IMG/VR virus record: IMGVR_UViG_3300009103_000004
Location: 64,001-128,000 of that record
Strand: one strand, 5' to 3'
Origin: a virus
Length of the DNA stretch: 64,000 nucleotides
How positions within the stretch are numbered: the first letter of the stretch is position 1; each line of letters opens with the position of its first letter. Below are positions 33,065 through 34,061 of the stretch, in pieces. A program made the position numbers and the translations under genes. Below the pieces are notes generated by a model that did not search any database, had not been told where the DNA came from, and was given only the letters and a program-made list of their open reading frames with translations.

Positions 33065-34061
33065 AACATAACAGAGCTTATACGAGCGTAACGTAACCCC
33101 CGTAACTTATCCCAAACAATCACATACGTAACTTGCCAAATCAGACAAGACACATCGCTACAAATCTCAAAACAACCCATCTTAGCTAAACCCACCAGAT
33201 CAGACAGAACATACCATATCATATTTTAACTCAGCTTAACGAGACACAACTCGACTAAAGCCATACCAATTGCTCAACATATCTGACCTAAAGCAACCCA
33301 GCTCATCCAAACGGAGCAAATCGAAGCTCGCCGGAACCCAACTCATCTTAACCTATCTGACATACCAGAACTGATACCATCTCATAACAGCGAAACTCAT
33401 CATAACAGAGCTGACTCAACAAAGCGGAACAAGTCTCATCATAGCGAAACTCAACAAAACAGAGCGGAACAGCCAAATCTTACCAGAACAAAGCGAAGCT
33501 TACCCCAGCTGAACTTATACTATCTTAACCCAGCTAATCAAATCAGCCACATTGGAGCGGAACTTATCCCATCTGAACCAGAAGCAACTTGACTCATCGT
33601 ATCTGCCGCAACTGATCGCAAAGCACCGCAACATAGCACACTAGAGCATATAATACCAGATCACATCTGCCGAAGCGAAACATAACTGAACATATCTTAA
33701 GCCAACAGGGCTCAACGAAACATATCTGACTTAACAGAACGTAGCCCAACTAAACACAGCAAAAGACTACTTAACATGTAACGCCATATCTGACTTAACA
33801 CAACTCGGGGCAACTCAGCACGTAGCATACCTACCGAACTTACGAGAACTTATCTGACTTAACGGAACGTATCTATACAAATCTCAGCCCATCCCATCTT
33901 AACTTATCTGACATAACAGAGCTGAACAAACCTGGCCGGAACCAAACCCATATCAACTCAGCTCGACAAAGGGGCATCGAATCTGACTTAACAGAGCATA
34001 GCTTATACGAACGTAGCAAAACGAATCCCAGCTAGACGAATCTGCCATAGCAAAACGGAAT
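33065..34061 (-). ncRNA. 5-nt-period guide-like array (GHT-NN)n, about 14 full units
   Basis: Plus strand reads A[ATG]C-NN in phase; boundary ATC-W-G[AC]C (first triplet AGC at 33409, AAC at 33468) at 33140, 33199, 33281, 33355, 33409, 33468, 33542, 33601, 33665, 33724, 33788, 33852, 33906, 33981, 34040. Confidence 0.88.

What the first reader, a model, noticed from the sequence alone, without database searches (positions are those of the whole stretch)
33140..34046. The variable dinucleotides spell protein motifs as codon positions 1-2: wobble-skipping guides
Seen: removing the triplets and reading each NN as NNn gives, in RNA orientation, [IM]V[IM][KN]V[FL]VYGTL[KN], [KN][KN]GG[DE][FL]YTP[KN], [FL]YG[KN][RS][KN][HQ]G[KN]S[FL]L, [DE]G[CW]P[HQ][FL][HQ]L[IM] and LGY[KN]GV[DE][FL]A. 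One unit read in the opposite orientation gives TGG[FL]P[CW][HQ]A[FL]SV. Known: these fit GGCT, HsdM, Walker A, HUH, sugar-phosphate isomerase and C5-MTase motifs. Inference: the target is read as two bases paired and one skipped, in register with codons, so most synonymous changes cannot escape and one guide can cover a gene family. Both orientations occur, which suggests a dsDNA target. The motif recognition was post hoc and by eye, and about half the units gave no clear motif.
Basis: partly seen in the sequence, partly recalled or inferred. Interest (0 to 1): 0.98.

Follow-up and report, generated by a model that had tools for sequence, protein, structure and literature searches.

The report
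Phage VIPR guide-RNA array
This 1-kb five-base rhythm is the guide-RNA array of a VIPR system, a CRISPR-like phage system first described in 2026.

Summary
Window 33061-34062 holds about 185 pentamers, read as nn-G-x-U on the minus strand. They form about 18 back-to-back units of 9-14 repeats, and this is the only such stretch in the 167-kb virus record. All the decoded peptide strings reproduce.

Those papers describe a Vipr RAMP protein plus GGY/NN pentamer guides, a 1-nt skip rule, the skipped base at the codon wobble position, and dsDNA targets on either strand.

The adjacent 286-aa gene (34133-34993) is a Vipr homologue. A profile of array-linked proteins hits the solved SUSP1 Vipr at E=1e-17, and the model has a Csm3/Cas7-like fold.

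- **C5-methyltransferase unit:** 8 exact hits in viral contigs, all antisense and in phase 0. A shuffled control gave 0.
- **HsdM unit:** at least 120 exact hits in genomes, nearly all sense and in phase 0.
- **GGCT unit:** a 24/24 match at the start of a cyanobacterial-type chromosomal GGACT gene. Skip 1 hit 5 of 121 genomes; skip 2 hit none.
- **Not verified:** the Walker-A, HUH and isomerase readings.

Local peculiarities are a G-H-U scaffold instead of GGY, units with no 3' tail, and methyltransferase or host-like targets. This scan has already found VIPR arrays on other DNA (106 notes in at least 96 genomes).

The parts
35681..35709 (-). Terminator-like hairpin upstream of the two-gene operon. 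It probably ends the preceding transcription unit.
35019..35669 (-). Protein B, 216 aa: a candidate Vipr-accessory protein (vap). Its function is unknown.
   Evidence: Homologues sit next to the Vipr gene and array in L076, L112 and L104. It hits phrog_15946 only and no Pfam family. The AF2 model has pLDDT 72 and no PDB fold match below E 1e-3.
34133..34993 (-). vipr gene: a 286-aa minimal RAMP (Cas7/Csm3-like) protein. It carries a Lys/Ala-rich N-terminal extension and an internal insertion.
   Evidence: PDB 36pp 'SUSP1 Vipr protein' is hit at E 1.7e-5 by the single sequence and at E 1.1e-17 by the family profile, over the full length. Foldseek's top hits are Csm3/Cas7 chains with probability 1.00. 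Equivalents of the published RNA-contact residues are conserved: H63, R228, E267, W268, R269. Homologues lie next to pentamer arrays in about 12 unrelated viral contigs.
34078..34108 (-). A 12-bp hairpin followed by a U-rich tract, lying between vipr and the array. It could be an attenuator or terminator, or a structural element at the 5' end of the array transcript.
33061..34062 (-). vrRNA array: about 185 pentamers (nn-G-x-U in RNA sense) in about 18 abutting units, with no spacers or tails between the units.
33986..34044 (-). Guide unit decoding to SYGS[FL]TR[KN][IM]L[KN]. No target was found.
   Evidence: 0 exact hits in viral contigs
33911..33985 (-). Irregular guide unit with an extra base near 33972.
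33857..33910 (-). Guide unit matching the HsdM / N6-adenine methyltransferase motif KKGGEFYTP[KN]. It is sense to the gene.
   Evidence: 1 viral hit (L121), confirmed as N6_Mtase + HsdM_N by Pfam. At least 120 genome hits, 112 of them sense and phase 0.
33729..33792 (-). Guide unit matching the start of GGACT (gamma-glutamylcyclotransferase-like) genes, V[IM]KVFVYGTLK. It is sense to the gene and covers the start codon.
33547..33605 (-). Guide unit matching C5-cytosine methyltransferase motif IV, TGGFPCQAFSV. It is antisense to the gene.
   Evidence: 8 exact viral hits, all phase 0; Pfam DNA_methylase; shuffled control 0 hits; the matched proteins are 35-71% identical to one another
33473..33546 (-). 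Longest guide unit (15 repeats). It decodes to a Walker-A-like string, and no natural match was found.
33150..33472 (-). Six further units: 33414-33472, 33360-33413, 33293-33359, a short irregular stretch at 33259-33292, 33204-33257 and 33150-33203. Their targets are unknown. Unit 33150-33203 is 79% identical over 34 nt to part of the HsdM unit.
33065..33149 (-). Short, degenerate distal units. 33065-33097 is 79% identical to part of the first full unit (33990-34022).

Best explanation
This is a VIPR (Viral Interference Programmable Repeat) locus of a roughly 167-kb phage. It consists of a two-gene operon on the minus strand (a candidate vap, then vipr), followed on the same strand by an array of about 18 guide RNAs (vrRNAs).

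By homology with the solved SUSP1 system, one Vipr protomer would bind each pentamer. The protein would sequester the fixed G-x-U triplet and present the two variable bases. The presented dinucleotides pair with a DNA strand while every third target base is flipped out.

Because the skipped base coincides with the codon wobble position, a guide reads the amino-acid-determining bases of a gene. It therefore tolerates synonymous drift. Binding is expected to silence transcription.

Shown here: the array anatomy, the Vipr homology and fold, the linkage of protein and array across unrelated contigs, and exact codon-phased natural matches on either strand. The matched genes are C5 and N6 (HsdM) DNA methyltransferases and a cyanobacterial-type GGACT gene.

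Inferred from the literature and not tested here: transcription and processing of the array, filament formation, DNA binding and silencing.
For: - **Anatomy.**
- **Vipr homology.** PDB 36pp is hit at E 1.7e-5. The profile of ten array-linked proteins hits it at E 1.1e-17 over residues 3-191 of 202. The AF2 model's best PDB matches are Csm3/Cas7. The residues that contact G1, G2 and Y3 are conserved (against the structural paper read).
- **Linkage.** Vipr homologues lie beside information-rich pentamer arrays in L104, L076, L112, L043, L069, L108, L117, L094, L057, L099, L031 and L110. The genes are always on the strand that makes the RNA read nnG.Y.
- **Code.** C5-methyltransferase unit: 8 of 8 hits in phase 0 and antisense, against 0 for the shuffled control. 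HsdM unit: at least 120 genome hits, against about 1 expected from 4^-20 over 596 Gb on two strands (my arithmetic), with 112 of 120 sense and phase 0. GGCT unit: 12 metagenome hits, two of them extending to 24/24 including the flanks I held back. In cyanobacterial genomes, 9 of 401 matched with 2 or fewer mismatches, against 0 for the backwards-read control. Skip 1 gave 5 of 121 and skip 2 gave 0 of 121.
- **Self-targeting.** None at any skip length, as the paper reports for other VIPRs.
- **Published mechanism.**
Against: - The scaffold is not the canonical GGY. Position 2 is G in only 9% of repeats, even though the residues that hold G2 in SUSP1 (R138, W178) are conserved here.
- There is no roughly 40-nt conserved 3' tail or pseudoknot between units.
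- A terminator-like hairpin lies between vipr and the array, and no promoter was predicted for the array.
- Only 3 of the 6 units tested found natural matches. The Walker-A-like, 33150 and 33986 units found none.
- There are no expression or binding data for this locus.
Confidence: 0.9

Rival explanations
1. Role variant A: the guides are weapons against rival phages and other mobile elements, the role published for VIPR. They would silence methyltransferase and other genes carried by competitors, so that competitor DNA goes unprotected or fails to replicate.
For: The C5-methyltransferase unit matches eight different viral contigs exactly. The HsdM and GGCT cores each have a hit in a viral contig. 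The published natural targets are satellites, prophages and other VIPRs.
Against: The best (24/24) GGCT match lies in an ordinary chromosomal neighbourhood, not a mobile element. The HsdM hits are overwhelmingly in cellular genomes, although prophage or island locations were not examined.
Confidence: 0.45
2. Role variant B: the guides are aimed at host-cell genes. Silencing hsdM- or dcm-type methyltransferase genes and a chromosomal GGACT gene would make VIPR an RNA-guided anti-restriction or host-takeover tool.
For: The perfect 24/24 match covers the start codon of a GGACT gene. That gene is flanked by a tRNA synthetase, an ECF sigma/anti-sigma pair, YkuD, ComFB and an M23 peptidase. The locus is syntenic with, and 70-82% identical to, loci from cyanobacterial genomes, and its GC content is like the phage's. 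The HsdM motif is matched in at least 120 cellular genomes. Other reports of this scan reached similar readings on other phages; I did not check them.
Against: - The host of this phage is unknown.
- The extra 5' flank match that makes the hit perfect occurs in only one lineage, and could be chance given family conservation (2 of 12 hits).
- Silencing transcription would not remove restriction enzyme that is already present.
- Matches to universal motifs do not identify the intended target.
Confidence: 0.35
3. The RNAs act as antisense regulators of mRNA rather than on DNA.
For: The C5-methyltransferase unit is antisense to its gene.
Against: The HsdM and GGCT units have the same sense as the mRNA and cannot pair with it. 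A gapped 2-of-3 pairing needs the Vipr scaffold, which has been shown to bind dsDNA.
Confidence: 0.03
4. The motif readings are pareidolia, and the array is a protein-binding or structural DNA repeat that carries no sequence code.
For: About half of the units give no recognisable motif. The Walker-A-like, 33150 and 33986 units found no match.
Against: Exact, codon-phased matches greatly exceed the controls for three units. The array is linked to a Vipr gene.
Confidence: 0.02

Closest known systems
VIPR systems with staggered vrRNA arrays (bioRxiv 10.64898/2026.04.26.720920, fig. S18 legend; read)
   Same: A Vipr RAMP gene is followed by back-to-back pentamer guides. The end of one guide marks the start of the next with a 1-nt overlap, which fits the 4-mer and -1 phase step seen here. 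Both have a two-gene locus, a phage origin, the 1-nt skip and the wobble register.
   Different: I could read only the figure legend, so the identity of architecture is inferred. The scaffold here is G-H-U, not GGY. Each unit here begins with a conserved CAGAU repeat whose CA is not matched in the targets.
Type II VIPR of Escherichia phage SUSP1 (Vipr structure PDB 36pp; bioRxiv 10.64898/2026.04.26.720927 and 2026.10.15.759431)
   Same: The protein is homologous over its full length, and the residues that contact the G-loop and thumb region are conserved. Guides have 9-16 repeats. The targets are coding and codon-phased, and they sit at catalytically important motifs, as with the satellite recombinase active site.
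   Different: SUSP1 vrRNAs are separate RNAs of about 100 nt with an invariant 3' tail and pseudoknot and a strict GGY scaffold. Its Vipr is 202 aa, against 286 aa here, which has an N-terminal Lys/Ala-rich extension and an insertion. The SUSP1 targets are a satellite's genes; here the matches are to DNA methyltransferase motifs and a chromosomal GGACT gene.
Non-canonical VIPR repeat units (GAC/NN, CAC/NN, WGT/NN, TGH/NN) reported in bioRxiv 10.64898/2026.10.21.760802, and NNNGG, YNNNG, NNNNG reported in the discovery paper
   Same: A 5-nt period, a Vipr-like neighbouring gene, and a fixed triplet that departs from GGY. This includes a non-G at position 2 (GAC).
   Different: Here position 2 is degenerate (U 43%, A 29%, C 19%, G 9%) rather than fixed. 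The consensus G-H-U/NN is not among the examples named in the text of either paper. The figures could not be read.
Class 1 CRISPR-Cas Cas7/Csm3 backbone filaments
   Same: Both have the RAMP fold, one protomer per guide repeat, and periodic base flipping by a thumb.
   Different: CRISPR has a 6-nt period with 5 bases paired, whereas this system has a 5-nt period with 2 paired. There is no repeat-spacer array here. I did not systematically search for cas or adaptation genes.

Membership tests
VIPR | A Vipr protein: a minimal RAMP with an RRM core, a glycine-rich loop and a thumb | tested here: met
   The profile hits PDB 36pp (SUSP1 Vipr) at E 1.1e-17 over the full length; the single sequence hits it at E 1.7e-5. 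Foldseek's top hits are Csm3/Cas7. The G-loop motif GIGEWRP and equivalents of H17, R138, D177, W178 and R179 are present.
VIPR | vrRNA made of 9-16 tandem pentamers, each a fixed triplet alternating with a hypervariable NN | tested here: met
   Units have 9-14 pentamers plus a lead repeat. The fixed positions are about 89% conserved, and NN uses all 16 dinucleotides.
VIPR | Canonical GGY scaffold | tested here: not met
   In RNA sense, G1 is 89% G and Y3 is 97% pyrimidine, but position 2 is G in only 9% of repeats. The papers allow 'a related consensus' and non-canonical triplets, so this does not exclude membership.
VIPR (type II, SUSP1-like) | An invariant 3' tail of about 40 nt, with a pseudoknot, after each repeat tract | tested here: not met
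   Units abut directly and are separated only by a 4-mer and a conserved CAGAU repeat. This locus is therefore not a type II-style array, and it fits the 'staggered array' description.
VIPR | An adjacent vipr-accessory (vap) gene | tested here: inconclusive
   A conserved 216-aa neighbour co-occurs with Vipr and an array in three other contigs. It has no Pfam family or PDB fold match, and I could not compare it with vap1-6 because no supplementary data are held.
VIPR | Natural targets obey the 1-nt skip rule | tested here: met
   Three units have exact 1-skip matches far above the controls. Skip 1 gave 5 of 121 genomes and skip 2 gave 0 of 121. Skips 0 and 3 were tested only against the phage's own genome.
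VIPR | The skipped base falls on the codon wobble position, and targets occur on either strand | tested here: met
   Phase 0 in 8 of 8 hits (antisense), 112 of 120 (sense) and 10 of 12 (sense).
VIPR | No self-targeting of the source genome | tested here: met
   The best matches in the 167-kb record equal those of shuffled units at every skip length.
VIPR | vrRNA expression, a Vipr-vrRNA RNP, dsDNA binding and transcriptional silencing | not testable with these tools
   This needs sRNA-seq, pull-down and reporter assays.
CRISPR-Cas (class 1) | A repeat-spacer array (repeats of about 25-40 nt, period 60-79 nt), with several cas genes | tested here: not met
   There is no such repeat in 32000-35500. 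The locus has two genes, one of them a RAMP. I did not run a dedicated cas gene scan.
TIGR-Tas | An 18-nt-period array with a Nop-domain Tas protein | tested here: not met
   The period here is 5 nt. The neighbouring protein is a RAMP, not a Nop-domain protein. The 18-nt figure comes from the paper read.

The most novel reading that the evidence does not exclude
This phage uses VIPR against cell-encoded functions rather than rival mobile elements. Its guides are written against the codons of universally conserved catalytic motifs of restriction-modification methyltransferases (HsdM motif, C5-methyltransferase motif IV) and against the start of a cyanobacterial chromosomal GGACT gene. That would make it an RNA-guided anti-restriction or host-takeover device with family-wide reach. 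Its Vipr also accepts any base at scaffold position 2, even though it keeps the residues that hold G2 in SUSP1.
Probability: 0.3. Interest if true: 0.6.

Novelty: new member of a known kind. Interest (0 to 1): 0.4.

Why it matters
That code is real, but three 2026 preprints already describe it, so the mechanism is not new.

The locus still adds a well-documented natural example outside the enterobacterial and Pseudomonas systems studied so far.

- It is a long, tail-less, back-to-back array with a G-H-U scaffold.
- Single guides exactly match conserved catalytic-motif codons across methyltransferases that are only 35-71% identical, and across many phyla.
- One guide matches what looks like a host chromosomal gene.

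If the methyltransferase or host-gene targeting is functional, it would widen the known role of VIPR from conflict between mobile elements to counter-defence or host control. The tolerance at scaffold position 2 may be useful for engineering.

Tried and rejected
- **Middle scaffold base as codon position 3.** Rejected. There were 3 stop codons against 4.4 expected from shuffling, and the wobble bases of real hits do not follow x.
- **Self-targets in the 167-kb genome at skips 0-4.** None above shuffled units.
- **Standard repeat and similarity tools.** Tandem Repeats Finder found nothing because the phase shifts between units. Rfam gave no credible match. blastn and megablast against GenBank phages gave no match.
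- **Walker-A-like unit.** 0 exact hits for the 11-dinucleotide core in viral contigs and in metagenomes. 0 hits with 3 or fewer mismatches in 121 cyanobacterial genomes.
0 hits in viral contigs. It is 79% identical over 34 nt to part of the HsdM unit, so it may be a diverged copy of that unit.
- **Unit 33986.** 0 hits in viral contigs.
- **Lead CA of the CAGAU repeat as a paired or PAM-like position.** It is not matched in any set of hits.
- **Protein B fold.** No PDB match below E 1e-3. The phmmer hits to mini-Gq constructs were treated as spurious.
- **Host identification.** No psbA and no T4-type capsid family in the record. A tblastn of one phage protein gave mixed hosts. The metagenome records holding the perfect target are not held as genomes, and their accession prefix appears in no paper.
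- **Unused or unavailable.** The supplementary tables of the VIPR paper are not held, so I could not assign a VIPR type (I-VII).
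Full report
**1. The observation**

Reading 32700-34500 and parsing 33040-34080 with a phase-tracking model shows about 185 consecutive pentamers. On the + strand they read A-x-C-n-n. Among 181 pentamers, A fills position 1 in 162 and C fills position 3 in 161. The middle base is A 78, T 52, G 35, C 16, and the last two bases use all 16 dinucleotides. 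A scan for this periodicity finds it only at 33061-34051 in the window, and only there in the whole 167,189-bp single-contig virus record, on either strand.

The pentamers fall into units. Each unit ends (on the + strand) with ATCTG or a close variant, and the next begins with a 4-mer [A/C]Cnn. The phase therefore slips by -1, giving unit lengths of 54, 59, 64 and 74 nt. The repeat finder recovers the same junction family, with spacings of 54, 64, 74 and 75 nt. This phase slip explains why Tandem Repeats Finder reported nothing. No ORF of 60 aa or more lies in the region.

**2. What it is**

A scan of IMG/VR for eight consecutive ANCNN pentamers, followed by screening for long, information-rich arrays, found the same kind of element in many unrelated viral contigs. 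Examples are L094, L112, L104, L043, L057, L069, L108 and L117.

Those arrays consist of R-x-C-n-n pentamers in units of about 9-14. They are cut by a conserved last pentamer plus a CCnn 4-mer: AACTG|CCnn, ACCTG|CCnn or AACCG|CCnn. Most use ACC, which is GGU in RNA sense.

An all-against-all comparison of the ORFs around these arrays shows two linked protein families. Homologues of the window's 286-aa protein (34133-34993, minus strand) lie next to the array in about 12 contigs. Homologues of the 216-aa protein (35019-35669, minus strand) do so in three contigs. The genes are always on the strand opposite the A-x-C reading. The array therefore lies downstream of them and would be transcribed as nn-G-x-U.

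A literature search then gave the name. VIPR systems (bioRxiv 10.64898/2026.04.26.720920) consist of a small RAMP protein (Vipr), an accessory gene (vap), and vrRNAs of 9-16 YNNGG repeats.

The window protein hits the PDB chain '36pp SUSP1 Vipr protein' at E 1.7e-5. A profile of ten array-linked proteins (alignment A1) hits it at E 1.1e-17 over essentially its full length. The AlphaFold model (pLDDT 69.8) finds Csm3/Cas7 chains as its best PDB matches, with probability 1.00.

The structural paper names the residues that hold G1 (H17, D177), G2 (R138, W178) and Y3 (R179). All have conserved equivalents here: H63, E267, R228, W268 and R269.

**3. The code, tested on this array**

The papers report four things. 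Only the NN bases pair. One target base is skipped per repeat. The skipped base usually falls on the codon wobble position. Targets lie on either DNA strand without a PAM. I tested this with the window's own units, written as NN-N-NN patterns in RNA sense.

- **(a) Unit 33547-33605** (22 specified bases). It has 8 exact hits in viral contigs. All lie antisense to long ORFs in phase 0 and read TGGFPCQAFSV, while the skipped bases differ freely between hits. Four of the ORFs were checked and are Pfam DNA_methylase at E about 1e-85 to 1e-90. The eight proteins are only 35-71% identical to one another, median 49%. An order-shuffled version of the same unit found nothing.
- **(b) Unit 33857-33910** (20 specified bases). 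It has one viral hit, inside an HsdM gene (N6_Mtase 6.5e-102). By my arithmetic (4^-20 x 596 Gb x 2 strands) about one is expected by chance. Of these, 112 were called sense, phase 0, reading KKGGEFYTP[KN]. The other 8 fall where my longest-ORF rule chose an overlapping frame. The hits span bacterial and archaeal phyla.
- **(c) Unit 33729-33792.** I searched with its central 10 dinucleotides and held back the flanks. It has one viral hit, at the start of a GGACT gene, and 12 metagenome hits. Ten of the 12 are sense, phase 0, at the first codons of ORFs of about 140 codons.
  - The held-back 3' dinucleotide matches in 9 of 12 hits, and the 5' one in 2 of 12. This gives two perfect 24/24 matches (L254 and L261, which are 97% identical to each other) and three 23/24 matches.
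  - In 401 sampled cyanobacterial genomes, 9 carry a match with 2 or fewer mismatches. The backwards-read control gave 0.
  - In one 121-genome sample, skip 1 gives 5 genomes and skip 2 gives none.
- **(d) Self-targeting.** No unit matches the phage's own genome better than shuffled units at any skip from 0 to 4.

Two of the three validated guides have the same sense as the mRNA. They can pair only with DNA, which fits the published dsDNA targeting.

**4. What was not confirmed**

- The Walker-A-like unit found no exact match in viral contigs or metagenomes, and no match with 3 or fewer mismatches in 121 cyanobacterial genomes.
- The units at 33150 and 33986 found nothing in viral contigs.
- The HUH-like unit is irregular and was not searched.
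It may instead be a diverged copy of that unit.
- The idea that the free middle base supplies the third codon letter is rejected.
- The conserved CA of the leading CAGAU repeat is not matched in any set of hits. That repeat looks like a handle or processing signal rather than part of the guide.

**5. How this locus differs from described VIPRs**

- **Scaffold.** In RNA sense, G1 is 89% G and Y3 is 97% pyrimidine. Position 2 is U 43%, A 29%, C 19% and G 9%, so the scaffold is G-H-U rather than GGY. L104 has the same contact residues as the window protein, yet its array is canonical GGU. The published contacts therefore do not explain the relaxation. Non-canonical triplets are already reported: GAC, CAC, WGT and TGH, and NNNGG, YNNNG and NNNNG. 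G-H-U is not named in those texts, and I could not read the figures.
- **Architecture.** There is no roughly 40-nt tail or pseudoknot. Units abut with a one-base phase step, which fits the 'staggered arrays' whose vrRNAs overlap by 1 nt (fig. S18 legend).
- **Protein.** At 286 aa it is larger than SUSP1 Vipr (202 aa). It has a Lys/Ala-rich N-terminal extension and an insertion, both modelled with low confidence.
- **Transcription signals.** A terminator-like hairpin (34078-34108) lies between vipr and the array. How the array is transcribed is unknown.
- **Protein B.** It is conserved beside Vipr in three other loci, but it has no Pfam family or PDB fold match. I call it a candidate vap.

**6. 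Biological role**

The matched genes are two kinds of DNA methyltransferase and a GGACT gene. The 24/24 GGACT match covers the start codon. It lies among a class I tRNA synthetase, an ECF sigma/anti-sigma pair, YkuD, ComFB and an M23 peptidase. The locus is syntenic with, and 70-82% identical to, loci from cyanobacterial genomes, and its GC content (about 40%) is like the phage's. This suggests a cellular target, possibly a host gene.

Three cautions apply. The phage's host is not established. The extra flank match is seen in a single lineage. And matches to universal motifs do not identify the intended target.

The published papers name satellites, prophages and other VIPR loci as targets. 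They do not mention methyltransferases or restriction-modification. They do note a guide footprint on a recombinase active site, which is the same logic of aiming at codons that cannot change. I rate the rival-element role at about 0.45 and the host-gene role at about 0.35.

**7. Novelty and score**

This scan has also met VIPR arrays repeatedly on other DNA (106 notes in at least 96 genomes), including readings of guides aimed at restriction or defence genes. I reached my own reading before consulting those notes and did not test them.

The locus is a new member of a known kind, with some variant features. It is interesting as a clean natural example and for the methyltransferase and host-like targets, but it is not a new kind of system.

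Noticed in passing
window 33065-33097 vs 33990-34022; 33154-33187 vs 33871-33904: Some guide units are partial copies of one another, 79% identical including the NN positions. In addition, units 33360-33413 and 33414-33472 share sub-blocks. This suggests that new guides arise by duplication and divergence inside the array.
   Followed up: partly
window 34133-34993 (protein residues 1-45 and about 150-210): Compared with homologues from other contigs, this Vipr has a Lys/Ala-rich N-terminal extension and an insertion of about 60 residues. Both are modelled with low confidence.
   Followed up: partly
GenBank phage records, e.g. NC_028751.1 37719-38276 (Mycobacterium phage Quico): Distant homologues of the Vipr protein (about 28% identity over 84% of its length) occur in about 27 Mycobacterium and 5 Gordonia phage records, one Pseudomonas phage record and one cyanophage record, and are annotated as hypothetical in the records listed. 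I did not check whether pentamer arrays lie next to them.
   Followed up: no
L094 (minus strand 1200-2360) and L057 (4580-5060): Other viral pentamer arrays use different punctuation between units. L094 uses an ATTAA-AT-TC-ATTAA-ACCAT-TCCTT block, and L057 uses ACCCA-TT-AGC-CTT. Guide boundaries therefore differ between VIPR lineages.
   Followed up: no
Rfam gave only a sub-threshold hit nearby (STnc320, E 0.76).
   Followed up: no
window 21237-31832 and 36664-37209: The neighbourhood is rich in sugar and nucleotide-modifying genes. These include a 954-aa multi-glycosyltransferase, a GT90-like protein, a methyltransferase-domain protein and a nucleoside 2-deoxyribosyltransferase-like protein. 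They may act in DNA or surface modification.
   Followed up: no
window 32293-32661: A DUF6915 protein (Pfam E 8.5e-44) lies just downstream of the array and of the unannotated 135-aa ORF at 32643-33050. I did not examine whether either is linked to the VIPR locus.
   Followed up: no
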